A DNA stretch of 36,586 nucleotides from Frankiaceae bacterium (GCA_030840515.1 JAVEEJ010000181.1:1-36586); one strand, 5' to 3'. Shown: positions 58 through 14,841, numbered from the stretch's first letter. The notes: generated by a model not told the origin, from the letters alone. Translations and numbers: made by a program.

Positions 58-831
58 GTGACCGGGGTTCCTGCCGAGGGACCGGGCATGTCTTTGACCA
101 ATGACCTCGAGCGCACCCGGCGCGACCGCGCCCTGCTCGATGACCTCATAGCCAATCCGCAGCGCCTGGGCCCTGACTTCCAGCCCATCCGGCGGCTCGC
201 CGACGACACCGTGGTCGCTTACAAGGCGACCGGTCGCGGCCAGGCGGGCACCGACCTCGCGGACACCCTGACGCTGCTCGAAGCGGCGCAAGGGCTCGGT
301 GTGGTGGAGCGCCTGGACTGGGCGTTCCGCTGCCTCGCCTTCGACGTCGCGATCGACGCCGGGCTGCAGGCCGAGGTGCACCTGACGCCGGAGCCGGAGA
401 CCTTCGGCTCGGCCTGCCCTCCGCGGCTCGCGGTCTCCTTCGGTCGTGGCAAGCGCGCGCTTACCGTGGGCGCCGAGCTGCACCTGCAGGCGTTCGACGA
501 CTCGGTCGCGATGCGGCGTGCGGTCGACGAGTGGCGCGAGTACGGATGGAAGGTCGTCGTCGCCGACGTGGCGGACCGCGAGGACGCCGTGGGTCTCATC
601 CCGGTGCTTCGACCCGACTACGTCCAGCTGGACATGTCGCTGCCAGGGCGTACGGCGGTCGGCACCGCGCCGTCCGTGCGCCGGCTGGTTTCCGCGGCAC
701 TGGACAACGGCGCCGAGGTCATGGCGACCCGGGTCGACGTACCTTCGCGTCGTCCGGAGGCGGCTGAGCTGGGCGCGACCTGTGCCCGCGGTCTCATCCT
801 CGGCGCACCGGGACCGCTGCCGCGCTCCTAG
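58..831 (+). CDS. Stand-alone EAL-domain-like protein with degenerate catalytic motifs
   Basis: 257-aa ORF with strong third-position GC bias. EAL-fold landmarks occur in the expected order but are mutated: FQPIRRL (QPI); AYKATGRG where E-A-L-x-R is expected; VVADVADRED where DDFGTG is expected; PDYVQLDMSL where dy-K-iD is expected; VMATRVDV where AEGVE is expected; ARGLILGAP where QGylfsrP is expected. Alternative ATG start at 88. Confidence 0.7.
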   Translation: MTGVPAEGPGMSLTNDLERTRRDRALLDDLIANPQRLGPDFQPIRRLADDTVVAYKATGRGQAGTDLADTLTLLEAAQGLGVVERLDWAFRCLAFDVAIDAGLQAEVHLTPEPETFGSACPPRLAVSFGRGKRALTVGAELHLQAFDDSVAMRRAVDEWREYGWKVVVADVADREDAVGLIPVLRPDYVQLDMSLPGRTAVGTAPSVRRLVSAALDNGAEVMATRVDVPSRRPEAAELGATCARGLILGAPGPLPRS

Positions 832-851
832 CTCGCGCGCTCCTAGCTCCG
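822..851 (+). repeat. Direct 15-bp duplication (GCGCTCCTAGCTCGC / GCGCTCCTAGCTCCG) containing the EAL-like gene's stop codon
   Basis: In frame this reads CCG CGC TCC TAG CTC GCG CGC TCC TAG. That gives two in-frame TAG codons 15 nt apart (829-831 and 844-846). Confidence 0.85.
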
Positions 852-901
852 CCTGTGGACAAGCCCGGCGGCGGGTTCTCGGACCTGTCCAGACTCCCGC
901 C

Positions 902-1174
902 ATGCACACAGACGTCCACCCGGAGAGCCTGGGCGCTGCGGCTACTTCGTTGGCCCGCGTCGCGGCCGAGCTAGCCGAGGCGCGCCAACAGCTGTCCGCC
1001 GTACACGCGCGCTCCACCGACCTCGGTCGCGCCGGTGCGGCCGCAGCGCACGAGACCTGGCGCAGCGCCGACCGGGCGCTCACCGGAGTGAGCGAGAGCG
1101 TGTCCTCGCTGGGTGACGCGCTCCGGTTGCTGGCGACCGTCTACGCCGACGTAGAGCGCGGGGCCGTGCGGTGA
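902..1174 (+). CDS. Small all-helical protein, EspC/WXG100-like (possible type VII secretion partner or chaperone)
   Basis: ATG at 902 lies in frame inside the 446..1174 ORF. The 90-aa product MHTDVHPESLGAAATSLARVAAELAEARQQL... resembles the 'v-dPeaL-aaA--L---A--L' opening of EspC/ESX-associated small proteins. Its stop overlaps the next start (GTGA at 1171-1174). High GC3. Confidence 0.6.
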   Translation: MHTDVHPESLGAAATSLARVAAELAEARQQLSAVHARSTDLGRAGAAAAHETWRSADRALTGVSESVSSLGDALRLLATVYADVERGAVR

Positions 1175-2451
1175 GCGCGACGGTGCTGGAGCCTCCCGCT
1201 CCGGCCTACCCCGCTCCCGTCACCCTGCCGCGGGTGGCGGCGAGCCCGGTTGATGCGCGCCGGCTCGCACGGGCTTATCGGGAGAGCGCGCGGACGACTG
1301 AGGACGCCGCGCGGCAGCTGCGTCAGGTGGTGCAGGGCCTGCCGTGGGCGGGTCGCGCGGCTCAGTCGAGGTGGGTACCTGCGGAGGTCGTGCTCGGGGA
1401 CTTGCACCGGCTCGCGGAGGGGTTGCACGAGGTGGCCCGCTCACTGGAGTCCTATGCGCACGCGTTGGACAAGGCGCACGAGAAGCACCACTGGTCGCTG
1501 AAGAAGCTCGCCGTCATCGGTGCCGTCGTTGTCGTGACCGCGGTCGCGGTGACCGTGACGATGGGAGCCGCGGCCGTTGCTGTCGGCACAGCTGAGGCGG
1601 CGCTCGCGGAGGGCGCTCTGGCCGGGGCTGGCGCGGCGGTCACTGCAGCGACTGCCGCGGAGGCTGGTGCCACCGCCTCACTGCTGTCCTCGGCCGGGAT
1701 GATGACGGGCCTGCGCGTGCTCGGGACGTTCGTGCTGCCGAAGCTCGCCCAGGCCGAGATCGCGGGTGGTTTGTCCGCCCTGCAGCAGGAGGTGTTCGCT
1801 GGGGAGATCTCTGGTTCGCAGGTCCTGCTCGACATGCAGCTCGGTCTGGCAGCCTCCGCGGCGACTGGGGCGGGCCTGCGCGCGGTGCGGGGCGCGGAGC
1901 TGACGGGTGCGGTGGGATGGGCGGCGCCCCATCTGGTGGTCGGCGCGGGCGTGGCAGGGACCAGTGCGCTCGGGCAGTGGGAGACGACGGGATCGGTCTC
2001 GGCGCAACGGGTGGCGCGCGACGGCGCACTCGGCGCCTACTTCTCGGGAGTCGGCTGGACCATCGCCCGCAACAGCGGGCTGGCCTACGCCACGCCCCGC
2101 GAGATCGAGCTCAGCAAGCGCTACAACTGGAACAACCCTGACACCCTCGCCAGACATGTCGCCGATCACGCCGCCGATCTCGGCATCACGAGCCCCGAGG
2201 AATACGTCCGGCAAGCACAGGCCCTGCTGCGCCGCGCCGAGGTGGGCGAAGTGGAATGGGGCTGGCAGCCTAGACATCGGTCCGTTGCAGTTTTGGACCG
2301 AACGAGTGGGACCTTCGCGACGTTCGATCCCGTGACCCGGGCCACGAAGACGCTCTACTCGCTGCTCGCCGGGGGCCAATCCGATTCGTATGTCACGTAC
2401 TACTGGAAGCGCTACGTGGAACCATGGCCCCGTGGGAAATGGGGAGTCTGA
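1171..2451 (+). CDS. Putative T7SS-type secreted polymorphic toxin: WXG/T7SS-signal-like N-terminus, Ala/Gly/Val-rich multi-TM region, unassigned C-terminal domain
   Basis: 426-aa ORF. Residues ~28-105 (DARRLARAYRESARTTEDAARQLRQVVQGLPWAGRAAQ...SLESYAHALDKAHEK) form a helix-turn-helix pattern with a W-x-G turn followed by AA, as in WXG100/T7SS-signal N-terminal domains of actinobacterial toxins. Residues ~110-290 are hydrophobic and A/G/V-rich. Residues ~300-426 are a polar globular domain rich in W/Y/H/R. Translationally coupled to both neighbours. Confidence 0.65.
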   Translation: MSATVLEPPAPAYPAPVTLPRVAASPVDARRLARAYRESARTTEDAARQLRQVVQGLPWAGRAAQSRWVPAEVVLGDLHRLAEGLHEVARSLESYAHALDKAHEKHHWSLKKLAVIGAVVVVTAVAVTVTMGAAAVAVGTAEAALAEGALAGAGAAVTAATAAEAGATASLLSSAGMMTGLRVLGTFVLPKLAQAEIAGGLSALQQEVFAGEISGSQVLLDMQLGLAASAATGAGLRAVRGAELTGAVGWAAPHLVVGAGVAGTSALGQWETTGSVSAQRVARDGALGAYFSGVGWTIARNSGLAYATPREIELSKRYNWNNPDTLARHVADHAADLGITSPEEYVRQAQALLRRAEVGEVEWGWQPRHRSVAVLDRTSGTFATFDPVTRATKTLYSLLAGGQSDSYVTYYWKRYVEPWPRGKWGV

Positions 2452-2452
2452 C

Positions 2453-2764
2453 GTGACGGATCCCGTGACGGTGTGCCCAGTCTGCGGCTGGCCACAGATG
2501 GAGGCTGACGATCGAGGCGAGCCCTTGGCACATGAGATCTGCGCCTGCTGTCGGACGCAGTTCGCCAAGAGCGAGTTCGACATCGAGTGGAGCTACGGGG
2601 TCGGCGATGACGGTGCTGCCTACCTGCTCCTCCGCAAGGCTTGGATCGATGCCGGTGCCCCTTGGGCACATGGGTCGCCACCGCCCGGATGGGATCCCGC
2701 GAAGCAGCTCGAGCAGGCGTTCGGGCGACCAGCTCACTTGCTCGACCCGCCACTCGAGGGATAA
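2453..2764 (+). CDS. Small CxxC...CxxC zinc-ribbon protein, candidate cognate immunity protein
   Basis: GTG at 2453 lies 1 nt after the upstream TGA (2449-2451). A GGGGAG Shine-Dalgarno sits at 2441-2446. Product MTDPVTVCPVCGWPQMEADDRGEPLAHEICACCRTQF... has two Cys pairs and then a Trp-rich tail (AGAPWAHGSPPPGWDPAKQL). The ORF track's 2390 start would overlap the upstream gene by 62 nt. Confidence 0.6.
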   Translation: MTDPVTVCPVCGWPQMEADDRGEPLAHEICACCRTQFAKSEFDIEWSYGVGDDGAAYLLLRKAWIDAGAPWAHGSPPPGWDPAKQLEQAFGRPAHLLDPPLEG

Positions 2765-2895
2765 CCGAGCGAGGCGCAGGTCCAGCGCTGCGGCTTGACC
2801 GCAACACGCCGGCGATTCTTGGTCCTGTCACGGTAACGGCGGTGCCACGGCGGCGAAGCGGACTAGCGCGGGCCCGCGGCGTCACGGCGACTGAC

Positions 2896-2920
2896 GATTG
2901 CCCCGCCCAGCGGGGCAATC
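2896..2920. terminator. 10-bp perfect hairpin between convergent genes (GATTGCCCCG-cccag-CGGGGCAATC)
   Basis: Inverted repeat read directly: arms 2896-2905 and 2911-2920, 5-nt loop. It lies between the + cassette (ends 2764) and the - TrmH gene (ends 2989). No U-tract on either strand. Confidence 0.4.
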
Positions 2921-2988
2921 GCCATCGGCGCGAGGTCAGCCCCCTGGTGCCTTCAGACAATGGCGCCGCAAGGGCGACGGCGCGAAGG

Positions 2989-4160: not shown

Positions 4161-7100
4161 TCACAGCGCGAGCTCGACCCAGACCACCTTGCCGATGCCG
4201 GCCGGCCGGATTCCCCAGTCGCTCGCGACGCTGTCGACGAGGAACAAGCCACGTCCGCCTTCGTCGTCGAGCGCCGCCCGGCGCAGTCGCGGCAGGCTGC
4301 GGTCGGCGTCGGCCACCTCGACCACGAGCCCCTGCTCGCGGCAGCGCAGCCGAAGCGTGCACGGCGGGGAGCCGTAGCGCATCGCGTTGGTCACCAACTC
4401 GCTGACGATGAGCGTCACGGAGTCCGCGACGCCCTTGACCCCCCGCAGCTCGAGCTGCTCGAGCGCCCAGCGCCGAGCCAGCGCGACCTCGCCGTCGGCG
4501 TTCCCGATGTGACGGACCGACCACGCTGACGCGGCCTTGCGAGTGGGAGCGACGCGGGCGACGAGTACGGCGACGTCGTCACCGAAGTCCTCGTCGGCGT
4601 TGACCGCACGCAGCGCCGCCGCGCATAGTGCCGCCGCCGACTCGGTCACCCCGGCCAAGGCATCACGCACCAGGTCGATGCCGACATCGATGTCGCGCGT
4701 GCGCTCCTCGATCAGCCCGTCGGTGTAAAGGACGACCCCACCGCCGGGTGGCAGCGGGATCTCGGCCGCGACGTAGCGTGGGCCACCGACACCGAGCGGC
4801 GTCCCCACCACCAGGTCCAGCGTCATCGGCCGCGTTCCGTCGGGGTCGAGGATCAGCGGTGGTGGGTGGCCTGCGTTGGCCAGCACCACGGTGTTGGCCC
4901 CGGGGTCGAAGACCGCGTAGATCGCGGTGACGATCTGCACCTCCTCGAACCCGCGCACCACGCGGTCGAGTCCGGCCAGGACCTCATCGGGTGGCAACTC
5001 CATCGCGGCGTAGGCGCGTACCGCGGCCCGCACCTGGCCCATCACCGCGGCGGCCCGGATGCCGCGGCCCATGACGTCGCCGATGACCAAGGCGGTGCGA
5101 CCGCTCGACAGCGCGATCACGTCGAACCAGTCGCCGCCGACCTCGGTGCCCACCGTGCCCGGCACGTAGCGGTGCGCCACCTCGAGCCCCTCGGCCTCGT
5201 GGTGGTCCGCAGGCAGGAGGCTCTGCTGCAACGTCAGCGCGACCTCGGCGCGCTCCTCGAACTGGCGGGCGTGGCCGATCGCGGTCGCCGCACGCCGCCC
5301 CATCTGCGCGAGCAGGTCGAGGTCGTCCTCGCTCAGCCGGCGCCCCGACGGACCGTTGGCCAACGTCATCGTGCCGATGTTCTGCCCCGCGACGATGAGC
5401 GGCACGATGGCCACGGAGCGGTTGCCGATCTGGCGCAGGAGCTCGAGGTGCTCCTCGCCGCGGCCCCGCGTCTCGACGTACCCCTCGGGGAGCTCTGCCA
5501 GCAGTCGCGGTTCACCCGTGCGCGCGACCTCGTGCACGGTCGTGCTTCCCGTGTAGCCGTTCTCCAGGTCGACCAGCTTCGCCATGGCAGCGTGGAGCTC
5601 GGCATCCGCGTGGGCGAACGCCACCGCCCGCAGCCCTCGCTCGTCGGCGAGGTTGACCCAGCAGCAGTCGGCGAGCCGCGGCACCACGAGTCGCACGACC
5701 CGCGCCAGGTTCTCCTCGTAGTCGAGCGAGCTCGACAGGGTGCGGCCCACCTCCGCCAGCATCGACAGCCGGTCGCGCTGGTCCTGCGCAACGGACAGCG
5801 CGGCCCGCTCGGACTCGAGCAGCGCCGCGCGGTCGAGTGCCTGCGAGCACTGCGAGGCGATGGCCTCGACCAGCCGGCGCTCCTGGTCCCCGACCTCGCG
5901 CGATCCGTACCAGCCCAAGGTGAGCACGCCGAGCCTGCGATCGCGCACCTCGAGCGGCAGCAGCGCCATGGACTGCTCGCGCGCCTCGATGCCCGTCAGC
6001 ATCGGGTAGCGCGCATCGCGTTCGGTGAGGTCGTGCCACCACTGCGCCTGGCCCGCCCGGAAGACCTCGCTCGCCGGCAGCTCGGCATCCACCGGGAACG
6101 TCGTGAACCGCGTGCGCACCTCTGGGTCCAGCCCGACGGCCCGCACCAGCTCGAGGCTTCGACCGTCGGGGGTCACGTGGATCAAGCTGGCGTTGTCGGC
6201 GGCGAGCAGCGTCGCGACGCGACTCATCACGACCTCGGCGACGTCCTCCACGGTCCGCGCCTGGGACAGGCCACTGGTGATGTCGTGCAGCACCGCGAGC
6301 CGGGAGACCGCGGCCTCTGCCGCCACCCGCTGGCTCTCTGCAGTGCGGTGCGCCTCGCGCTCGGCCGCGTAGATGCGCGCCGCATCCAACGCGGCGCCGG
6401 CTCGGCGGCCGATCTCGGCGGCCAGCTCGACGTCTTCCGGGGGAAAGTGGCCCGCGTGCTCGGACGCCAGGCCGACCACTCCGACGACCCGGCCCCCGGC
6501 CATCAGGGGAACCGCCAGCGCAGCGCGCAGGCCCTGGCTCTCGAATGCGTGGCGTGAGGTGTCGCTGGGAGCGATGCTCGCCACGACCTCAGGCGTCATC
6601 TCGATCGCGACCGCCACGCCCTCCTCGGCTGCGCGCCGGTTGGGGTGCGCCGGCGGGTAGTCGACGAGAGCGCCAACCGGGCTCCAGCCCTGCGGAGGAC
6701 CGCCCTGAGCGTCGTGGACCAGAACCCGCCTGAAGGCGAGCGGCTCCTCGACCAGGTCGACGACGATGTGGGCGGCGAAGCTCGGGACGAACAGCTCGGC
6801 GAGGCCCGCCACGGTGCGCTCGAGGTCGAGCGCGACGCTGAAAAGCTCGGAGCAGCGGGACAAGAACGCCAGCCGCCGGCTCGCTGCGGCAGCCATCGCT
6901 GCGGCGGCGGTCGCCTCGCTGACGTCGATGACGACCAGCCCCAGGCAGGCCGGCCCCCCATCGGGCTCGAGCCGCAGCGCTGAGACTCGCCAGCTGCCAC
7001 CCTCGGCGCCCCCGGGCGTGACGACCAGGTCGAGTGCCGGGACGCCGGTGGCGAGGACCTGCGCGAAGCGCGACTGGAGCGGCCCGAGTGGCGGCACGGC

Positions 7101-7280
7101 TTCCCCGAGACCCTTGCCTGCGCAGTCATCGGACGGGGTGCCGGCGAGCTCTTCGAGCGCGCTGTTGAGCCGCAGGCAGCGCAGGCTCCCGTCGAGGACA
7201 GCGAGCCCGACCGGGGCGTGGTCGAACAGCTCCCGGTGCATCAGCAGCCCCTCGGCATCCTCCGACGCACCTGTGACCAC
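4161..7280 (-). CDS. Multidomain PAS-GAF(x3)-PP2C (SpoIIE-type) phosphatase with C-terminal RsbW-like HATPase domain
   Basis: 1039 aa. N-terminal PAS-like segment (LFDHAPVGLAVLDGSLRCLRLNSALEELAG), then repeated GAF-like segments. PP2C/SpoIIE motifs: GGDWFDV, VIGDVMGRG, VLYTDGLIE. C-terminal anti-sigma-kinase-like motifs: SELVTNAMRYG, DDEGGRGLFLV. Alternative ATG start at 7241. Confidence 0.85.
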   Translation of the reverse strand: MVTGASEDAEGLLMHRELFDHAPVGLAVLDGSLRCLRLNSALEELAGTPSDDCAGKGLGEAVPPLGPLQSRFAQVLATGVPALDLVVTPGGAEGGSWRVSALRLEPDGGPACLGLVVIDVSEATAAAAMAAAASRRLAFLSRCSELFSVALDLERTVAGLAELFVPSFAAHIVVDLVEEPLAFRRVLVHDAQGGPPQGWSPVGALVDYPPAHPNRRAAEEGVAVAIEMTPEVVASIAPSDTSRHAFESQGLRAALAVPLMAGGRVVGVVGLASEHAGHFPPEDVELAAEIGRRAGAALDAARIYAAEREAHRTAESQRVAAEAAVSRLAVLHDITSGLSQARTVEDVAEVVMSRVATLLAADNASLIHVTPDGRSLELVRAVGLDPEVRTRFTTFPVDAELPASEVFRAGQAQWWHDLTERDARYPMLTGIEAREQSMALLPLEVRDRRLGVLTLGWYGSREVGDQERRLVEAIASQCSQALDRAALLESERAALSVAQDQRDRLSMLAEVGRTLSSSLDYEENLARVVRLVVPRLADCCWVNLADERGLRAVAFAHADAELHAAMAKLVDLENGYTGSTTVHEVARTGEPRLLAELPEGYVETRGRGEEHLELLRQIGNRSVAIVPLIVAGQNIGTMTLANGPSGRRLSEDDLDLLAQMGRRAATAIGHARQFEERAEVALTLQQSLLPADHHEAEGLEVAHRYVPGTVGTEVGGDWFDVIALSSGRTALVIGDVMGRGIRAAAVMGQVRAAVRAYAAMELPPDEVLAGLDRVVRGFEEVQIVTAIYAVFDPGANTVVLANAGHPPPLILDPDGTRPMTLDLVVGTPLGVGGPRYVAAEIPLPPGGGVVLYTDGLIEERTRDIDVGIDLVRDALAGVTESAAALCAAALRAVNADEDFGDDVAVLVARVAPTRKAASAWSVRHIGNADGEVALARRWALEQLELRGVKGVADSVTLIVSELVTNAMRYGSPPCTLRLRCREQGLVVEVADADRSLPRLRRAALDDEGGRGLFLVDSVASDWGIRPAGIGKVVWVELAL

Positions 7281-9717: not shown

Positions 9718-9987
9718 TCACTCTGCGCGGGGGTGCCTAGTCCGTCTGTGCGCTCCCTGGGGGTGCACCTCAGCCGGATCGGGTGGGCAGTCGGCCAGCG
9801 CGCCGCGCAGCAGCTGCAGCGCGCTCCTGGTCAGTGCCTCGGCCTGCTCGTCGCTGAGCCCCTGCTCGCGGGCCACCCGGGCGCTGCCTTCGCCGTAGCC
9901 GAGCGCCGTCACGACCGCCTCCCGCTCAGGCGCAGGGAGCGCGGCCAACGCGTCCTCCAGCCGCGAGAGCAGCTCGGCCTCGCTCAT
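9718..9987 (-). CDS. Sigma-70 region-4-only (ECF r4_2-like HTH) small protein
   Basis: 89 aa. ALAALPAPEREAVVTALGYGEGSARVAREQGLSDEQAEALTRSALQLLRGAL matches 'L-Lp--eReal-L----g-s--eiA---g-s-gtvksrl-RA---Lr--l'. The same frame upstream hits a TAG at 10093-10095 with no start codon and no region-2 sequence. Confidence 0.65.
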   Translation of the reverse strand: MSEAELLSRLEDALAALPAPEREAVVTALGYGEGSARVAREQGLSDEQAEALTRSALQLLRGALADCPPDPAEVHPQGAHRRTRHPRAE

Positions 9988-10315: not shown

Positions 10316-13069
10316 TCAGACCGCCCGCAGCCGGCGTGGGGGCTCGGTGCTCGGCTTGGGGACCGTCGGCGTCCGCGTCAACGTGGCGCGCAACAACGTG
10401 CCCTCGCCGAGGGTGACCACCTCGACCTCGCTGGCGATCGCCCGCACCAGGAACAGTCCGCGGCCCCGCTCCGCCTCGTCGGAGGGCAGCGACCGGCCGA
10501 GCTCGTCCAGGCGCCCGGGATCCACCCCGTCGTCGTGGACCTCGATCAGGACCGTGGAGGGGGTCACGGTGGCGGTCAGCCGCACCTCGTGAGACGCGGC
10601 CATCACCGCGTTCGCCAAGAGCTCAGAGGCAGCGAGTACGACGTCGTCTGCGTTGTCCATCACCGTGCCCAGCCAGGCCCTCAGCTCGGCGCGCACCTCA
10701 GGCACGGACGCGAGCTGCGGCGAGGCGACCCACTGACGGGAGACCGTCTCGGCCTCGACCGGAGTGCGGCGCAGCACCAGCGCGAGGGTGTCGTCGTGAC
10801 GTTGCGCGCCGGCGAGGGCGCGGTCGATCAGCTCGCGACTGAGCTCCGCGGCAGGCAATGAGCTGAGGGCAGTGGCGTGGCGCACCAGCGCCTCCATGCC
10901 CTCGATGACGTCCTTGCGCGCCTCGATCAGCCCGTCGGTGTAGAGCACCAGCGCGTCGTCCACGCCGAGGGTGGTCTCGACGACGACATCGCTGCCCGCG
11001 CCGGGCCATCCGATGGCGCAGCCACTGGCAGCGAGCTGCTCGACCTCGCCGTCGGCCCGCACCAGCAGAGCGGGCGGGTGTCCACCAGCGGCGACCCGCA
11101 GCCGGCCGGTCGAGGGGTTGTAGCGAGCGATCACGACAGTGGCCACCAGCTCCGGGTGCTGCGCGGACAGCAGCTCGTCGGCGCGGACCACCACGTCCTC
11201 GAGCGGTCGTCCTTCGGCGGTGACGACGCGAAGCGTGTGGACAACGGCGAGCGCGTCCTTGGTCGCGCCGACACCGTGCCCGAGGACGTCCACGACGCAC
11301 AGGTGCACCTCACCGTCGGGCAGCACCTGCCAGTCGTAGATGTCGCCGCCGGTGGGTGCGGACGGGTCCGACGGAAGGTAGGACACGCCGAGGTCCGCGC
11401 CGGCGACTTCGGGCCGCACCGGCATGACCGCCTGCTGCAGCTGCTCGACGACGGCACGACGTGCAGCCTCGGCCTCCGCGAGCCTGCCGACCTCCTCGCG
11501 CAGCTCCTCGACCTCGGAGCTCGTGGTGACGTCACGGGCGACGACGACGAGGGCCTGGGCCTGTCCTTCGTCATCGCGCGCGACGCTGTAGGAGCACATG
11601 AGACGGCGTTCGCCTTCGCCGGCGGGGCTGACGACGAGGTCGGCCGGCAGCACACCGCCGGCGTGCCAGCCTCCGATGTCGACGGTGTTGCCCGCGACGG
11701 TGCGGGCGCGCAGGCGCGTGAGTGCGCCCGGGCGTCCGATCACGTCTTCGGCGGCAAGGCCGGTGGAGCGCACCAACGCCGGGTTCCAGGACAGGACGGT
11801 CCCGTCACGCCCGATCGTCGCGATCCCGTCGCTGGTGGTGCTCACGATCTCCGCGAGCCGACGGCGCTCTTCCAGCACGCTTGCCAGCAGCCGGCCGCGT
11901 CCCAGTGCGCTGGCCGCCTCGCGCGCGAGCGCCTCGAGCACCGTCATCTCGCCGTCACCGAAGCCCTCGAGGCCCGCGCGGTCGAGCACGATCAGCACGC
12001 CGGTGAGACGGCCTTCGACCAGCAAGGGGGCCGAGAGGCACTCGCGGTGCCCGCGTTCGGTGAGCTCGCGGCCGAGCGGGTCGCGCCGGTCGGCGACGAG
12101 CCGCATCGGGCCGGGCTGCGCGGCGAGTGCGCCCTCGAGCGAGGCGACGTCGTCGGGCTCGAGGACGACGGTCTCCCCCTGGTCGCTGACCCGCCTGACC
12201 TCACGCACGCCGTCACCGCGCAGCACAAGTGAGGCCGCGCCGGCGTCGAAGCAGGCCGCGACCTCGGCGAGGAACGCCGAGATGCCGTCTCTGGGGTCGA
12301 GCGGAGTGGCGAGCGCCTGGGCAGCCCGGTGCAGTGCGTTGAGCCGGTGTCGCTCCGCGCGCGCTACCGCGTATCCGCGGTAGGCCAGGTGCAGCACCAC
12401 GAGTGGTACGGCGAACAGCACCACGGCCGCGGGATGTGCCACGTACGCGAGGACGTAGAGCATGCCGATCAGCGCGTTGACTGCCCACCCGCCGAGCCAG
12501 CCCGGGACCATGACGGGTGCGAGCTGGCGCAGCACCCCGGCGGCCCGGCTCGGATCGGCAGCCATCAGGACCAGGACGAAGGCCGCCTGGTTCACGAGGA
12601 GTACGACGGCCAGGCCGGCGAGCAGTGCGGCGAGGTTCCCAGCCGTCAGCCCCGGCCCGTTGCTGAGCGCGTCGACGACGAGCGCTCCGCACCCGGCGGC
12701 GAGTGCCATCTCCGCGATGTTGAAGGCGACCTTGATCGGCGTGTTGCGTCGCAGCACGCCGGTCGCCAGCTGACCCGCTGCCACGGCGAGCACGACCCAA
12801 GGCGCAGTGAAGGAGAACAGCAGGGGCGCCAGGACAGCCTCGACCAAGTTCAGCGCGTTGACCTCGCGGCCGACGCGGAACCGCACCGTGAACCACTCCG
12901 CAGTGGCGACGAGCAGGGCGAGCGCCGGCAGCGCGGGCCAGGAGACGCGTCCCGGCGGGGGCCCGCCGTCGGCTCCGGCCAGGGCCACTGCGGCCGCGGC
13001 GAGCGCGAGCACGCCGACGTACGCCCCCAGCAGGGGCGTGAGTCGAGTCGACGTGCGCGGCCGCGGCAT
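10316..13069 (-). CDS. Membrane-anchored GAF-PAS-PP2C (SpoIIE-type) phosphatase with C-terminal RsbW-like HATPase domain
   Basis: True start taken as ATG 13069 (MPRPRTSTRL...), 2 nt after the S8 gene stop. About 260 aa of multi-TM hydrophobic sequence, then a GAF-like segment and a PAS-like segment (IVSTTSDGIATIGRDGTVLSWNPALVRSTG). PP2C motifs: GGDIYDW, VVDVLGHG, VLYTDGLIE. HATPase motifs: SELLANAV, HDDG, ERGRGLFLV. The first 56 codons of the track ORF are an alternate-frame read of the upstream repeat. Confidence 0.85.
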   Translation of the reverse strand: MPRPRTSTRLTPLLGAYVGVLALAAAAVALAGADGGPPPGRVSWPALPALALLVATAEWFTVRFRVGREVNALNLVEAVLAPLLFSFTAPWVVLAVAAGQLATGVLRRNTPIKVAFNIAEMALAAGCGALVVDALSNGPGLTAGNLAALLAGLAVVLLVNQAAFVLVLMAADPSRAAGVLRQLAPVMVPGWLGGWAVNALIGMLYVLAYVAHPAAVVLFAVPLVVLHLAYRGYAVARAERHRLNALHRAAQALATPLDPRDGISAFLAEVAACFDAGAASLVLRGDGVREVRRVSDQGETVVLEPDDVASLEGALAAQPGPMRLVADRRDPLGRELTERGHRECLSAPLLVEGRLTGVLIVLDRAGLEGFGDGEMTVLEALAREAASALGRGRLLASVLEERRRLAEIVSTTSDGIATIGRDGTVLSWNPALVRSTGLAAEDVIGRPGALTRLRARTVAGNTVDIGGWHAGGVLPADLVVSPAGEGERRLMCSYSVARDDEGQAQALVVVARDVTTSSEVEELREEVGRLAEAEAARRAVVEQLQQAVMPVRPEVAGADLGVSYLPSDPSAPTGGDIYDWQVLPDGEVHLCVVDVLGHGVGATKDALAVVHTLRVVTAEGRPLEDVVVRADELLSAQHPELVATVVIARYNPSTGRLRVAAGGHPPALLVRADGEVEQLAASGCAIGWPGAGSDVVVETTLGVDDALVLYTDGLIEARKDVIEGMEALVRHATALSSLPAAELSRELIDRALAGAQRHDDTLALVLRRTPVEAETVSRQWVASPQLASVPEVRAELRAWLGTVMDNADDVVLAASELLANAVMAASHEVRLTATVTPSTVLIEVHDDGVDPGRLDELGRSLPSDEAERGRGLFLVRAIASEVEVVTLGEGTLLRATLTRTPTVPKPSTEPPRRLRAV

Positions 13070-13071
13070 GC

Positions 13072-14841
13072 TCAGTCCCAGACCCCGTACCAGGTCGAGC
13101 CCTGGAGCGATGCGCCGTACCACGTCGACCCCTCGGTGCCGCCGTACCAGGTGGAGCCGTACCAGGTCGACCCGTACCACGTGGAGCCGTACCAGGTGGA
13201 GCCGTACCAGGTGGAGCCGTCGAGACCGCTGGCCCACTGGCTGGAGTACCAGGTGCTACCCGTCCAAGCCGAGCCGGTGTAGCCGTACGGGTCGTAGTAC
13301 GTGCCCTGCGCGGTCTCCGCGCCCTTGACCGCGTCGCAGTCCTTGTCCAGCGAGCGCTGGGCGGCGGCGCACGGGCGGCCCGTCACGTGCTCGGTCCCGC
13401 GCGCGGACTCCAGCCCACCGGGCTCGAACGTCGTACCCGCTCCGTCCGAGGGGGTCCGGGCGTAGGTCGCGAACGGCTGCGGCACCGAGTGCACCGCGCG
13501 GTAGCCGTCGACCACGCCGGCTCCCACGCCGGAGGCGTCGCGAGAGAAGGAGGCCTGCGCCGTGGCGACGAGGGCTCCCTTGAGCTGGTCCGGCGACCAG
13601 TCCGGGTGCGCCTGGAACGCGAGCGCAGCAAGCCCCGAGACCACACCCGTGGACTGCGAGGTGCCGGAGCCGCGTCGGTAGGGCGAACCCGAGAGCGGCC
13701 CGCCGGGAGCAACCTCTTCCACCCGACTTCCCGGGCTGCGCAGCGAGACCACGTGGCCGCCGGGGGCTGCGATGTCCGGCTTGGCCAGACCCTGGGCAGT
13801 CGGGCCGCGACTGGCGAAGTTGGGAAGCGTGTCGTCGGTGACCGTCGAGGTCTCCCGATCGTCCACCGCGCCGACCGTGATCACGAGCGGGTCGTCGGCG
13901 GGCTTGCTGATCGTCCCGGTCGCGGGTCCGCGGTTGCCCGCAGCCACAACCACGGCCACACCACTGGTCCAGGCTCGCTCCACCGCGAAGTTCAGCGGGT
14001 CATGGCGGTAGTCCGCGGTGCTGTCGGTGCCGAGGCTGAGGTTGAGGACCCGGATGCCGTAGGTGTCCTTGAACGAGACGGCCCACTGGATCGCAGCCAG
14101 CACCTTGCTCACGTCGGCCGACCCGTCGCGGCCCGCGATCTTGATGCTCACGATCTTGGCCTCGGGCGCCACACCGCCGTAGAAGCCGTAGCTCGCGGCG
14201 CCGGACCCGGCGATCAACCCGGCGATGAACGTGCCGTGGCCGTAGGAGTCGTTGCAACCGGCCTCGCCGGAGAAGTTGACGCAGTCGTCGCCCGGCATAC
14301 CGGTGACGGGGTCGGCGACGTTCAGCACAGTCGAGGCCAGGTCCGACACCGGCGCTACTCCGGTGTCGATGAGCGCCACCGTCACGCCCTTGCCCGTGAC
14401 GCCGTCCGCATTCAGCCGATCGGCACCGACCTCGTGGCGGTACACCGGCCGGGGCAGGTCCTCGAGGTCATGGCCGTAGAACTGGAAACCGCCTCGGCCA
14501 CCCCCGTCGATGCTGCGCATCGACACGTGGTCATCGGGAGTGACGGCCAGCACGCCCGACGTGGACCGAAGCGCCGCGATCTGGTCGGCGGGGACGGTGG
14601 CGGCGAAGCCTCGGACGATCGGGAGGTCGCGGGTGACGACGCCTCCGAGCGCACGCACCGCGGCCTTGGCACCCGCCTGCGCGCCGGGTGCCTGAACGAT
14701 GACGGAGGACGAGCCGATAGCCGGTCTCGTGGTGGATGCGGCCGTCGGCCCTGCCGCGGCACCGCTGGACAGCACGGCGACGAGCACTGCGGCCCCGACC
14801 AGGCCTACCGACCGAACGCGCTTGAGCACCGCTGACCCCAC
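13072..14841 (-). CDS. Secreted S8 (subtilisin-family) serine peptidase with C-terminal STWYG pentapeptide-repeat tail
   Basis: Signal-peptide-like N-terminus (VGLVGAAVLVAVLSSGAAAG). Catalytic contexts: VALIDTGV (Asp), SYGHGTFIAG (His), GSGTSQSTGVVSG (Ser). C-terminus: ...GSTWYSSQWASGLDGSTWYGSTWYGSTWYGSTWYGSTWYGGTEGSTWYGASLQGSTWYGVWD. Confidence 0.9.
   Translation of the reverse strand: MGSAVLKRVRSVGLVGAAVLVAVLSSGAAAGPTAASTTRPAIGSSSVIVQAPGAQAGAKAAVRALGGVVTRDLPIVRGFAATVPADQIAALRSTSGVLAVTPDDHVSMRSIDGGGRGGFQFYGHDLEDLPRPVYRHEVGADRLNADGVTGKGVTVALIDTGVAPVSDLASTVLNVADPVTGMPGDDCVNFSGEAGCNDSYGHGTFIAGLIAGSGAASYGFYGGVAPEAKIVSIKIAGRDGSADVSKVLAAIQWAVSFKDTYGIRVLNLSLGTDSTADYRHDPLNFAVERAWTSGVAVVVAAGNRGPATGTISKPADDPLVITVGAVDDRETSTVTDDTLPNFASRGPTAQGLAKPDIAAPGGHVVSLRSPGSRVEEVAPGGPLSGSPYRRGSGTSQSTGVVSGLAALAFQAHPDWSPDQLKGALVATAQASFSRDASGVGAGVVDGYRAVHSVPQPFATYARTPSDGAGTTFEPGGLESARGTEHVTGRPCAAAQRSLDKDCDAVKGAETAQGTYYDPYGYTGSAWTGSTWYSSQWASGLDGSTWYGSTWYGSTWYGSTWYGSTWYGGTEGSTWYGASLQGSTWYGVWD
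13078..13262 (-). repeat. 15-bp tandem repeat array (TCCACCTGGTACGGC, coding S-T-W-Y-G); five near-perfect units at 13141-13215 flanked by degenerate copies
   Basis: On the + strand: gccgtaccaggtgga / gccgtaccaggtcga / cccgtaccacgtgga / gccgtaccaggtgga / gccgtaccaggtgga. Additional gtaccaggt/gtaccacgt cores near 13087, 13117 and 13247. Confidence 0.9.

What the first reader, a model, noticed from the sequence alone, without database searches (positions are those of the whole stretch)
902..2764. Translationally coupled three-gene cassette resembling a type VII-style polymorphic toxin/immunity module with no recognisable toxin family
**Seen in the sequence:**
- Three + strand ORFs are packed with a GTGA start/stop overlap (1171-1174) and a 1-nt gap (2451/2453).
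- ORF1 (90 aa) is all-helical. It opens VHPESLGAAATSLARVAAEL, like EspC/WXG100-type ESX partners.
- ORF2 (426 aa) begins with a helical hairpin carrying LPWAGRAAQ (W-x-G followed by AA) and ...SLESYAHALDKAHEK. This is the pattern of WXG100-like / 'T7SS signal' N-domains found on actinobacterial polymorphic toxins.
- ORF2 continues with ~180 aa of Ala/Gly/Val-rich hydrophobic sequence and ends in a ~130-aa polar domain.
- ORF3 (103 aa) is a CPxC...CxxC zinc-ribbon protein in the position where immunity genes sit.
- A -10-like CAGACT at 890-895 ends 6 nt before ATG 902, so the transcript may be leaderless.

**Inference:** this is a secreted toxin with a helper and an immunity protein.

**Caveats:** no T7SS core gene (eccC, eccB, mycosin) lies in this window, and the flanking genes are housekeeping-like. 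The secretion route is therefore unproven, and the domain combination may be undescribed.
Basis: partly seen in the sequence, partly recalled or inferred. Interest (0 to 1): 0.8.

Follow-up and report, generated by a model that had tools for sequence, protein, structure and literature searches.

The report
Actinobacterial WXG-type polymorphic toxin–immunity cassette
The three overlapping genes are a bacterial "weapon cassette": a small helper, a toxin with an exchangeable RNase-like tip, and a matching antidote, and a near-identical strain carries a different tip and antidote at the same spot; the kind of system is already known, but this version has an unusual hydrophobic middle and a new zinc-ribbon antidote.

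Summary
Three coupled + strand genes sit at 902-2764.

- **ORF1** (90 aa) belongs to the EsxAB/EspC clan. It carries a YxxxD/E export motif, conserved in 9/9 relatives.
- **ORF2** (426 aa) has three parts: a WXG100-like hairpin with invariant W59-x-G61, a 198-aa Ala/Gly/Val-rich middle with one TM-like segment, and a C-terminal domain modelled confidently (pLDDT 96).
- **The C-terminal domain is recognisable.** It is homologous to the CdiA toxin domain of PDB 8EY4 (family profile E=1.4e-11; Foldseek TM 0.70). Colicin D tRNase is its next structural neighbour. Its family (876 cluster representatives) sits at the extreme C-terminus of Rhs-repeat, DUF637/RHS (CdiA-like) and T7SS_signal proteins. 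No Pfam model covers it.
- **Tip and downstream gene were swapped together.** A Frankiales MAG is 97-100% identical on both flanks, but window 2144-2854 (toxin tip plus ORF3) is replaced there by an unalignable tip plus an unrelated downstream gene.
- **Tip subtype and downstream gene co-vary** in 3/3 + 3/3 loci, so ORF3 (CxxC…CxxC) is the cognate immunity protein.

T7SS export and RNase activity are inferred, not shown; no T7SS core gene was seen in any flank with gene annotation. The architecture matches known actinobacterial WXG100–toxin–immunity cassettes (mycobacterial prophage PEST cassettes, CpnT). I rate it a new variant of a known kind, of moderate interest.

The parts
853..860 (+). 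Conserved intergenic motif CTGTGGAC upstream of ORF1; possibly a regulator or alternative-sigma site, function unknown
   Evidence: Invariant in six syntenic loci whose surrounding intergenic sequence diverges. It lies 28 nt from the -10-like hexamer, which is too far for a sigma-70 -35 element.
890..895 (+). -10-like hexamer CAGACT, ending 6 nt before ATG 902; candidate promoter of a leaderless transcript
   Evidence: CA[GC]ACT is conserved at the same distance from the ATG in six loci. No canonical sigma-70 promoter was found by the scan. No Shine-Dalgarno sequence is visible between it and the ATG.
902..1174 (+). ORF1, 90 aa: EspC/WXG100-clan helical partner with a C-terminal YxxxD/E motif (Y81-A-D-V-E85)
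   Evidence: Pfam WXG100 E=5e-4 over the full length, below the gathering score. Relatives hit EspC 9/9 (best 1.7e-7) and WXG100 6/9. YxxxD/E is present in 9/9. A similar gene lies upstream of the trunk in at least 20 of 31 loci.
1171..1491 (+). ORF2 residues 1-107: WXG100-like helical hairpin (helices 26-56 and 68-105) with W59-x-G61 in the turn
   Evidence: W59 and G61 are invariant in A1. 8/13 homologues hit PF06013 and 5/13 hit PF25547 WXG100_2. Foldseek matches EsxA/EsxB structures with TMt 0.67-0.85, prob 0.90-1.0. Model pLDDT here is only about 60.
1492..2085 (+). ORF2 residues 108-305: conserved Ala/Gly/Val-rich hydrophobic trunk with one TM-like segment (about residues 108-141, nt 1492-1593)
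   Evidence: 77% AGVLTS, 10% charged, KD19 peak 2.55. Conserved across the trunk family. AF2 pLDDT is below 50. No tandem repeats. No Pfam hit.
2128..2451 (+). ORF2 residues 320-426: C-terminal toxin domain with a colicin D-like BECR fold, homologous to the CdiA-CT of PDB 8EY4; invariant H329, H333 and Y345
   Evidence: PDB profile search: 8ey4_A E=0.024 (A2) and 1.4e-11 (A4). AF2 pLDDT 96. Foldseek: 8ey4_A TMt 0.70, then colicin D 5znm/1tfo/1v74. 876 cluster representatives at E<=1e-3, with the domain at the extreme C-terminus of proteins 103-3155 aa long, including RHS-repeat, DUF637/RHS and T7SS_signal carriers.
2144..2854 (+). Swapped segment: toxin tip after the N-W-N-N-P-D junction, ORF3, and about 90 nt downstream
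   Evidence: Window versus L001 (Frankiales MAG) shows 97-100% identity on both flanks and about 40% (unalignable) identity here. GC3 is 0.74-0.76 here against 0.85-0.95 in neighbouring genes.
2453..2764 (+). ORF3, 103 aa (or 99 aa from GTG 2465): CxxC…CxxC zinc-ribbon protein, inferred cognate immunity protein
   Evidence: It follows type-A tips in the window, L002 and L006, while type-B tips are followed by an unrelated 115-119 aa protein. Only two other clusters were found among 5.8 billion. Only sub-threshold Pfam CPCC hits. No PDB sequence relative.
2855..2866 (+). GAAGCGGACTAG: remnant of the last four codons of the type-B immunity gene, marking the right recombination junction
   Evidence: Alignment with L001 resumes exactly here, inside the 3' end of L001's immunity gene.
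2895..2921 (.). Perfect 12-bp GC-rich hairpin between the convergent ORF3 and SpoU-methylase genes; likely a bidirectional terminator without a U-tract
   Evidence: RNA fold -35.2 kcal/mol, z = -4.58, 0/200 shuffles fold as well. Identical in L001. Not called by the T-run-based terminator scan.

Best explanation
This is a chromosomal polymorphic toxin–immunity cassette of the actinobacterial WXG100/ESX (type VII) kind.

**Proposed mechanism**
- ORF1 is a small EspC/PE-like helical hairpin carrying YxxxD/E. It pairs with the WXG100-like N-terminal hairpin of ORF2, which carries W-x-G. Together they form a four-helix bundle that presents the composite T7SS export signal. This pairing is inferred.
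- ORF2 is the toxin. Its conserved trunk includes a 198-aa hydrophobic Ala/Gly-rich region with one TM-like helix. This region probably inserts into an envelope or target membrane to present or translocate the tip. This step is a weak inference.
- The exchangeable C-terminal domain of ORF2 has a colicin D-like BECR fold and is homologous to the CdiA-CT of PDB 8EY4. It most likely cleaves RNA (tRNA or rRNA) using the invariant His329/His333 on the helix ahead of the sheet. This activity is inferred from the fold and from conservation.
- ORF3 is a zinc-ribbon protein. It binds and neutralises the tip in the producer. This role is inferred from co-variation.

**Expression and evolution**
- The three genes are translated from one, possibly leaderless, transcript by coupled reinitiation.
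- The tip and ORF3 were acquired together by recombination at the conserved N-W-N-N-P-D junction, displacing an earlier tip/immunity pair. This is shown by sequence comparison.
For: **Helper (ORF1)**
- Relatives hit EspC 9/9 and WXG100 6/9, and carry YxxxD/E 9/9.
- The NTGA overlap with ORF2 is found in 13/13 loci.

**Trunk (ORF2 N-terminus)**
- W59/G61 are invariant, WXG100 Pfam hits occur in 8/13 homologues, and Foldseek matches EsxA/EsxB.

**Polymorphism**
- The trunk carries at least five tip classes, including PF18431 RNAse_A_bac at E=1.3e-18.

**Tip**
- It is homologous to 8ey4_A, from the entry titled 'Contact-dependent growth inhibition toxin-immunity protein complex from E. coli O32:H37': E=1.4e-11 by profile, and TMt 0.70 by Foldseek on a pLDDT-96 model.
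- Colicin D tRNase is the next structural neighbour, prob 0.66-0.90.
- The family has 876 cluster representatives. The domain always lies within a few residues of the C-terminus, on RHS-repeat, PT-TG, DUF637/RHS and T7SS_signal proteins.
- In the colicin-like BECR group the catalytic His sits on the pre-alpha element (bioRxiv 10.64898/2026.08.28.747851). This matches the position of H329/H333.

**Immunity (ORF3)**
- Type-A tips are followed by the ORF3 family in 3/3 loci. Type-B tips are followed by an unrelated 115-119 aa family in 3/3 loci.
- Against L001 the flanks are 97-100% identical, 2144-2854 is unalignable, and a 12-nt remnant of the displaced immunity gene remains.
- GC3 is lower in the swapped part.

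**Precedent**
- WXG100–PT–Imm cassettes with demonstrated toxicity and immunity exist in Mycobacterium prophages (PMC10654092).
Against: - No T7SS core gene (eccB/C/D/E, mycP) lies in the 36.6-kb window (20 further ORFs scanned) or in the annotated flanks of L001, L003, L004, L007 and L008. The rest of the genome could not be searched.
- ORF1 and ORF2 themselves score below Pfam/NCBIfam thresholds for WXG100. The assignment rests on relatives and on a hairpin model of pLDDT about 60.
- ORF1 lacks a strict W-x-G.
- A long hydrophobic region with a TM-like helix is unusual for a T7SS substrate and is modelled with pLDDT below 50.
- Foldseek E-values are weak (0.09-1), although probabilities are high.
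- No activity is published for 8EY4 in the searched library.
- ORF3 has only two known relatives and no structural or family match. No complex was modelled.
Confidence: 0.72

Rival explanations
1. It is a toxin/antidote pair, but it is not exported by a T7SS. ORF2 would be a membrane-anchored protein (single TM helix about 108-141) acting in cis, for example as an abortive-infection or addiction module. Alternatively it is delivered by some other route, and the WXG-like hairpins serve only for ORF1–ORF2 assembly.
For: - No T7SS gene lies in the window or in the annotated flanks of related loci.
- ORF2 has a strong TM-like segment.
- The authors of the PEST cassette paper list phage defence as an open possibility for such cassettes (PMC10654092).
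Against: - The YxxxD/E + WxG pair is conserved exactly as in T7SS substrate dimers.
- Relatives of the tip sit on secreted delivery scaffolds: RHS-repeat, CdiA-like and T7SS_signal proteins.
- Tip/immunity displacement between near-identical strains is the signature of inter-strain competition loci.
- T7SS substrates are commonly encoded far from ecc loci (established knowledge of mycobacterial esx and pe/ppe genes).
Confidence: 0.15
2. ORF3 is not an immunity protein. It would instead be a zinc-ribbon chaperone, export adaptor or regulator specific to this tip, with immunity provided elsewhere or not needed.
For: - Zinc-ribbon immunity proteins are uncommon.
- ORF3 has no match to any immunity family or to the partner chain of 8EY4.
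- T7SSb toxins use several small partner proteins (PMC10653861, listed).
Against: - ORF3 sits immediately downstream of the toxin, is coupled to it, and is exchanged together with the tip.
- Type-B tips have a different protein in the same position.
- RNase_A_bac-tipped relatives have yet other small downstream genes.
- Export adaptors would be expected to track the conserved trunk, not the variable tip.
Confidence: 0.06
3. The C-terminal domain is not an RNase. It would be a toxin with another target, or a non-toxic binding domain, and the colicin D resemblance is only a shared fold.
For: - Foldseek E-values to colicin D are 0.13-1.1 with TM 0.45-0.56.
- Sequence identity is 12-15%.
- No published activity was found for 8EY4.
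Against: - The domain is homologous to a domain deposited as a CDI toxin in complex with its immunity protein.
- It always occupies the toxin position of polymorphic toxins.
- Two invariant His and an invariant Tyr lie on the helices preceding the sheet, where colicin-like BECR RNases place their catalytic His.
Confidence: 0.2

Closest known systems
PEST (phage-encoded ESX-secreted toxin) cassettes of Mycobacterium abscessus/chelonae prophages (PMC10654092)
   Same: - Three-gene cassette: a ~100-aa WXG100-type protein, a polymorphic toxin with an N-terminal WXG domain, linker and variable C-terminal TOX domain, and an immunity gene that co-distributes with the TOX domain.
- Recombination occurs within cassettes.
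- A PE/PPE-like heterodimer of the small protein with the toxin N-domain is predicted.
   Different: - This cassette is chromosomal, sitting between housekeeping-like genes (EAL, SpoU methylase, GroES), not in a prophage.
- It is in Frankiales-type soil bacteria.
- ORF2 finds no tblastn match in 50,697 phage records.
- The trunk has a 198-aa hydrophobic region with a TM-like helix rather than a simple linker.
- The tip and immunity families differ.
M. tuberculosis esxF-esxE-cpnT-ift operon (CpnT/TNT toxin and its immunity factor)
   Same: - Small Esx gene(s) upstream, then a toxin with an ESX-dependent N-terminal domain and a C-terminal toxic domain, then an immunity gene immediately downstream. 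The whole unit is encoded away from the ESX core locus (as summarised in PMC10654092).
- A membrane-associated N-terminal or central part, from established knowledge of CpnT.
   Different: - One small partner gene here, not two.
- No sequence comparison with CpnT could be made here.
- The tip is an RNase-like BECR domain, not an NAD+ glycohydrolase.
- The likely target is other bacteria rather than host cells.
CdiA-CT of E. coli O32:H37 (PDB 8EY4) and the colicin D tRNase domain
   Same: - The ORF2 tip is homologous to 8ey4_A (profile E=1.4e-11) and has the same fold (TMt 0.70).
- Colicin D (5znm, 1tfo, 1v74) is the next structural neighbour.
- It has a conserved H-x3-H on the helix ahead of a four-stranded sheet.
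   Different: - The delivery scaffold is a WXG trunk, not a type V CdiA filament or a colicin.
- ORF2's own subtype is a divergent member (about 15% identity to 8ey4_A in the Foldseek alignment).
- The immunity protein is unrelated to any PDB chain.
LXG toxins of Firmicutes T7SSb with Lap/DUF3130-type partners
   Same: - Conserved helical N-terminal targeting domain and variable C-terminal toxin.
- Small helical partner gene(s) upstream and an immunity gene downstream (PMC9600955, PMC10801868, listed).
   Different: - No LXG domain hit.
- The host phylum is actinobacterial.
- The N-domain is a ~100-aa WXG100 hairpin with a PE/EspC-like partner.

Membership tests
EsxAB clan (WXG100 PF06013 / EspC PF10824), tested on ORF1 | Profile match over the whole ~100-aa helical hairpin at the family threshold | tested here: inconclusive
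   ORF1 itself scores WXG100 20.6 bits (E=5e-4) against a gathering score of 27.3, and EspC E=0.034. Its relatives score EspC 9/9 (best 1.7e-7) and WXG100 6/9 (best 1.5e-6). Membership therefore rests on transitive homology.
EsxAB clan, tested on ORF1 | C-terminal YxxxD/E export motif on one partner of the dimer | tested here: met
   Y81-A-D-V-E85. Y is invariant and D/E is at +4 in 9/9 aligned relatives. The motif was also found in 18 of 31 loci by a crude regex scan, which missed two loci known to have it.
EsxAB clan, tested on ORF1 | W-x-G in the hairpin turn | tested here: not met
   ORF1 has W53-R-S-A. Relatives have WRSG/WRAG or no W at all. As in PE/EspC-type partners, the WxG is supplied by the other chain (ORF2 W59-A-G61).
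WXG100-headed (T7SS-type) polymorphic toxin, tested on ORF2 | N-terminal WXG100-like helical hairpin with a conserved WxG | tested here: met
   W59/G61 are invariant in 13 sequences. PF06013 hits occur in 8/13 homologues (best 6.5e-7) and PF25547 in 5/13. Foldseek matches EsxA/EsxB with TMt 0.67-0.85. ORF2 itself has no Pfam hit.
WXG100-headed (T7SS-type) polymorphic toxin, tested on ORF2 | Conserved trunk carrying alternative, unrelated C-terminal toxin domains | tested here: met
   Five tip clusters were found among 24 complete trunk genes, including RNAse_A_bac (PF18431, 1.3e-18) and the 8EY4-like family.
WXG100-headed (T7SS-type) polymorphic toxin, tested on ORF2 | Immunity gene immediately downstream that co-varies with the tip | tested here: met
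   Type A tips pair with the ORF3 family in 3/3 loci, and type B tips pair with an unrelated family in 3/3. Tip and downstream gene are swapped jointly between 97-100% identical flanks.
WXG100-headed (T7SS-type) polymorphic toxin, tested on ORF2 | Export depends on a type VII secretion system present in the genome | not testable with these tools
   Only a 36.6-kb contig is available. No ecc gene lies in it or in the annotated flanks of relatives. An S8 protease at 13072-14841 has T7SS_mycosin as its best hit, but at 167 bits against a cutoff of 278.75.
WXG100-headed (T7SS-type) polymorphic toxin, tested on ORF2 | Tip is toxic and is neutralised by the downstream protein | not testable with these tools
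   This needs expression experiments.
8EY4-like / colicin D-like BECR toxin domain, tested on the ORF2 tip | Sequence homology to a solved toxin domain | tested here: met
   8ey4_A scores E=0.024 with the 7-sequence profile and 1.4e-11 with the 32-sequence family profile, covering chain residues 10-88 of 88.
8EY4-like / colicin D-like BECR toxin domain, tested on the ORF2 tip | Fold: helices followed by a four-stranded antiparallel sheet | tested here: met
   The AF2 model has pLDDT 96 and pTM 0.88, with elements H-H-H-E-E-E-E-H. Foldseek gives 8ey4_A TMt 0.70 prob 0.99, and colicin D 5znm_B prob 0.90, 1tfo_A 0.82.
8EY4-like / colicin D-like BECR toxin domain, tested on the ORF2 tip | Conserved catalytic His on the helix preceding the sheet; RNase activity | tested here: inconclusive
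   H329, H333 and Y345 are invariant in 32 sequences and about 95% conserved in 161 aligned domains. Their catalytic role and the substrate are untested.
PF21725 T7SS_signal trunk | Profile match to the 241-position signal domain | tested here: not met
   No hit for ORF2 or its 12 homologues. hhalign of A1 against a T7SS_signal protein (P0023) aligns only the toxin tip.
LXG toxins (PF04740) | N-terminal LXG domain | tested here: not met
   No LXG hit in ORF2 or its homologues.
Cys_rich_CPCC (PF14206), tested on ORF3 | Profile match at the family threshold | tested here: inconclusive
   It is the top hit for two of the three family members and the second hit for the window's ORF3. However, E=0.077-1.2 (9-13 bits against a cutoff of 24.5), and the match covers only about 25 of 75 profile positions, the two Cys knuckles.

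The most novel reading that the evidence does not exclude
The conserved 198-aa Ala/Gly/Val-rich hydrophobic trunk, with its TM-like helix, would be a previously undescribed membrane-insertion or translocation module. It would let an actinobacterial T7SS substrate carry nuclease tips across a target cell's membrane, playing the role of the CdiA entry domain or a colicin translocation domain. ORF3 would found a new zinc-dependent immunity family for colicin D-like RNases.
Probability: 0.2. Interest if true: 0.65.

Novelty: new variant of a known kind. Interest (0 to 1): 0.4.

Why it matters
**Why it is worth following up**
- Interbacterial T7SS toxins are well studied in Firmicutes but barely in soil Actinobacteria.
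- This locus is a clean natural experiment. Two near-identical strains differ only by a 0.7-kb toxin-tip/immunity swap with mapped junctions. That makes tip-specific immunity and strain exclusion directly testable.
- It links a large toxin-tip family that has no Pfam model (876 cluster representatives on RHS-repeat, CdiA-like and T7SS scaffolds) to a solved structure and to the colicin D fold.
- It shows a rare trunk whose hydrophobic middle might explain how such toxins cross membranes.

**Why it is not a surprise**
- The overall architecture has already been described.

Tried and rejected
**Pfam and NCBIfam on the three window proteins**
- Only sub-threshold hits were found.

**Searches that returned nothing or little**
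- A word-indexed homologue search with the isolated tip found nothing, not even the protein itself. This is a tool limitation.
- ORF3 homologue search found two clusters only.
- A metagenome scan with the ORF3 alignment found nothing.
- tblastn of ORF2 against phage genomes found no match, so there is no direct kinship with PEST toxins.

**PDB sequence searches**
- ORF3, the ORF3 family and the type-B immunity family gave noise only, so neither resembles the 8EY4 immunity chain.
- The ORF1 family profile was dominated by designed coiled coils. ESAT-6 and PE25 appeared only at E about 1.

**Literature**
- Searches for 8EY4 and for O32:H37 CdiA-CT found no paper.
- No paper containing 'CPCC' together with 'immunity protein' or 'polymorphic toxin' appeared among the ten best-ranked results.

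**Sequence-level checks**
- The trunk is not a T7SS_signal (PF21725) domain.
- The central region is not a PGRS-like repeat: no tandem repeats.
- No canonical sigma-70 promoter or T-tract terminator was found.
- The S8 protease in the window is not a confident mycosin.

**Not attempted**
- I did not model the ORF1–ORF2N or tip–ORF3 complexes.


Full report
**Observation.** The three + strand ORFs exist as described.
- ORF1 is 902-1174 (ATG, 90 aa) and ORF2 is 1171-2451 (GTG, 426 aa). They share a GTGA overlap.
- ORF3 runs from GTG 2453, or from GTG 2465, to 2764.
- In the two relatives of ORF3 whose upstream DNA could be read, the ORF starts with GTG directly before T-T-C-P-V-C. This aligns with the window's second GTG at 2465.
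- Automatic gene calls elsewhere used the internal ATG (88 aa) and so drop the conserved CPVC motif.
- The ORF1/ORF2 NTGA overlap is present in 13 of 13 related loci. Several toxin/downstream-gene junctions are also ATGA or GTGA overlaps. The coupling is therefore a conserved feature, not chance.

**Context.**
- The window is a 72% G+C actinobacterial contig.
- Upstream of the cassette is an EAL-domain gene. Downstream, on the other strand, are a SpoU methylase, GroES and a PAS-GAF-SpoIIE protein.
- The 20 further gene-like ORFs scanned are housekeeping-like, with no ecc gene.
- One S8 subtilase (13072-14841, minus strand) has T7SS_mycosin as its best NCBIfam hit. It scores 167 bits against a cutoff of 278.75 and shows a hint of an I9 propeptide. 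I do not count it as a mycosin.

**ORF1.**
- By itself it scores below threshold: WXG100 at 20.6 bits, E=5e-4, over its full length, and EspC at E=0.034.
- An alignment with eight relatives taken from upstream of ORF2 homologues shows an invariant Tyr followed by Asp or Glu four residues later in 9/9 (YADVE in the window).
- All nine hit the EspC model (best 1.7e-7) and six hit WXG100 (best 1.5e-6). Weaker hits go to PE, PPE and EspB_PE, which are all T7SS substrate families.
- ORF1 has no strict W-x-G.
- ORF1 therefore looks like the YxxxD/E-bearing partner of a T7SS substrate dimer, as PE and EspC proteins are. That comparison rests on established knowledge of ESX substrates.

**ORF2 trunk.**
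- Only 14 homologues were found among 5.8 billion clusters. Five species were found among 185,579 reference genomes, all MAGs labelled Frankiaceae, Mycobacteriales or Actinomycetota. Twenty-two more loci came from soil metagenomes.
- Residues 1-300 or so are conserved, and W59 and G61 are invariant.
- Eight of 13 homologues hit WXG100 and five hit WXG100_2.
- The AlphaFold model of the full protein has a helical hairpin at 26-56/68-105 (pLDDT about 60). Foldseek matches it to EsxA/EsxB structures with TM 0.67-0.85 on the target.
- Residues 108-305 are 77% Ala/Gly/Val/Leu/Thr/Ser, with a single strongly hydrophobic stretch at about 108-141. This region has no repeats, no family match, and pLDDT below 50.
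- The trunk is not the Pfam T7SS_signal domain. A profile comparison with a T7SS_signal protein aligned only the tip.

**ORF2 tip.**
- Pfam has no model for it.
- A profile of seven tips found PDB chain 8ey4_A at E=0.024. The molecule name is 'PT-VENN domain-containing protein'. The entry title is 'Contact-dependent growth inhibition toxin-immunity protein complex from E. coli O32:H37'.
- An exhaustive HMMER search of 1.84 billion representatives found 876 proteins at E<=1e-3 and 316 at E<=1e-10.
- In 153 domain hits the domain almost always ends within about 10 residues of the protein's C-terminus. The carriers range from 103 to 3155 aa.
- The carriers include RHS-repeat proteins (one with a PT-TG pre-toxin domain and SpvB), a DUF637/RHS protein and a T7SS_signal protein.
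- A 32-sequence family profile raises the 8ey4_A match to E=1.4e-11 over nearly the whole chain.
- With that alignment the tip is modelled at pLDDT 96 and pTM 0.88, as helices followed by a four-stranded sheet and a final helix.
- Its best structural neighbours are 8ey4_A (TM 0.70, prob 0.99) and then the colicin D tRNase domain (5znm, 1tfo, 1v74; prob 0.66-0.90).
- W320, L326, H329, H333 and Y345 are invariant.
- A recent preprint on BECR RNases places the catalytic His of the colicin-like group on the helix ahead of the sheet. This is where H329/H333 lie.
- The tip is thus a recognisable polymorphic-toxin domain, most probably an RNase. Activity and substrate remain inference.

**Polymorphism and immunity.**
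- The same chromosomal site (EAL – small gene – trunk gene – small gene – SpoU) occurs in six other contigs.
- Their tips fall into two subtypes of the 8EY4-like family.
- Subtype A (window, L002, L006; L005 is cut off) is followed by the ORF3 family. Subtype B (L001, L003, L004) is followed by an unrelated 115-119 aa protein.
- Against L001, a Frankiales MAG, the window is 97-100% identical at the nucleotide level from 1 to about 2143 and from 2855 onward. The stretch between is unalignable.
- The left junction falls just after the codons for N-W-N-N-P-D, a motif conserved across the tip family.
- The right junction falls inside the last four codons of L001's downstream gene. The window keeps those codons as a functionless GAAGCGGACTAG at 2855-2866.
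- This suggests that a subtype-A tip with ORF3 replaced a subtype-B pair.
- GC3 is 0.74-0.76 in the swapped part, against 0.85 in the ORF2 N-terminus and 0.86-0.95 in neighbouring genes.
- More distant trunk genes carry RNAse_A_bac tips (12 loci) and at least three other endings, with other small downstream genes. They sit in other chromosomal contexts, next to a DNA ligase gene or within the proteasome locus.
- ORF3 has two conserved Cys pairs (C-P-V-C, C-x-C-C). It gets only sub-threshold hits to the CPCC zinc-knuckle family and has no relative in the PDB.

**Expression signals.**
- In six syntenic loci the intergenic region upstream of ORF1 keeps CTGTGGAC, and it keeps CA[GC]ACT 6-7 nt before the ATG.
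- There is no visible Shine-Dalgarno sequence, so a leaderless transcript is plausible but unproven. The E. coli-type promoter scan finds nothing.
- A perfect 12-bp hairpin at 2895-2921 (-35.2 kcal/mol, z -4.6) lies between the convergent ORF3 and SpoU genes.

**Comparison with what is known.**
- Three-gene cassettes of a WXG100 protein, a polymorphic toxin with a WXG N-domain, and an immunity gene are described in Mycobacterium prophages as PEST cassettes. Those have shown toxicity and protection, and recombination between cassettes (PMC10654092).
- The same paper points to the esxF-esxE-cpnT-ift operon as a relative.
- The present cassette shares that architecture. It differs in being chromosomal and in having no sequence match to phage genomes. 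It also has a distinct trunk with a long hydrophobic region, an 8EY4-like tip and a zinc-ribbon downstream protein.

**Verdict.**
- It is a new variant of a known kind.
- Toxin/immunity status is well supported by comparative genomics. T7SS export and RNase activity are reasonable inferences. The role of the hydrophobic trunk is open.

Noticed in passing
window 821-849: An exact 15-nt tandem duplication (CGCGCTCCTAGCTCG, 1.9 copies) spans the stop codon of the EAL-domain gene. It is also present in the near-identical MAG locus L001.
   Followed up: partly
window 853-860: CTGTGGAC is invariant in the EAL-to-ORF1 intergenic region of six syntenic loci. It lies 28 nt upstream of the -10-like hexamer. 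It may be a regulator or alternative-sigma site.
   Followed up: partly
window 13072-14841 (-): A 589-aa S8 subtilase has T7SS_mycosin as its best NCBIfam hit (167 bits, below the 278.75 cutoff) and a weak I9 propeptide hit. It is not adjacent to any ecc gene.
   Followed up: partly
window 4161-7280 (-) and 10316-13237 (-): Two large paralogous sensor proteins flank a radical-SAM / ClpP-like / YbaK-type editing gene group. Pfam on the second shows GAF, PAS, a SpoIIE phosphatase domain and an HATPase_c_2 domain. The syntenic copy of the first in L001 shows PAS, GAF and SpoIIE.
   Followed up: no
window 9718-9987 (-): An 89-aa ORF matches only the C-terminal region-4 part of ECF sigma factors (E=6.7e-5). 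It is either a truncated sigma or a stand-alone domain.
   Followed up: no
L008 10001-11613 and L009: A trunk homologue (P0013) has an unclassified C-terminus and a coupled 105-aa downstream gene. It sits inside the Pup-proteasome gene cluster and is preceded by a 272-aa unknown gene instead of an ORF1-like gene.
   Followed up: no
L025, L026, L030: These trunk-family genes end after about 310-370 aa without any recognisable toxin tip. They may be tip-less or decayed copies.
   Followed up: no
BFVD entry A0A9E7CKV2 (456 aa): One viral protein shares the tip fold (Foldseek E=8e-4, prob 1.0, 21% identity over 109 columns). It may be a phage-borne polymorphic toxin with the same tip family. Its name and host are not available.
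   Followed up: no
L007 11384-11447: The RNAse_A_bac-tipped homologue P0012 has no called downstream gene before a convergent gene 64 nt away. Its immunity gene may be missing, very small or located elsewhere.
   Followed up: no
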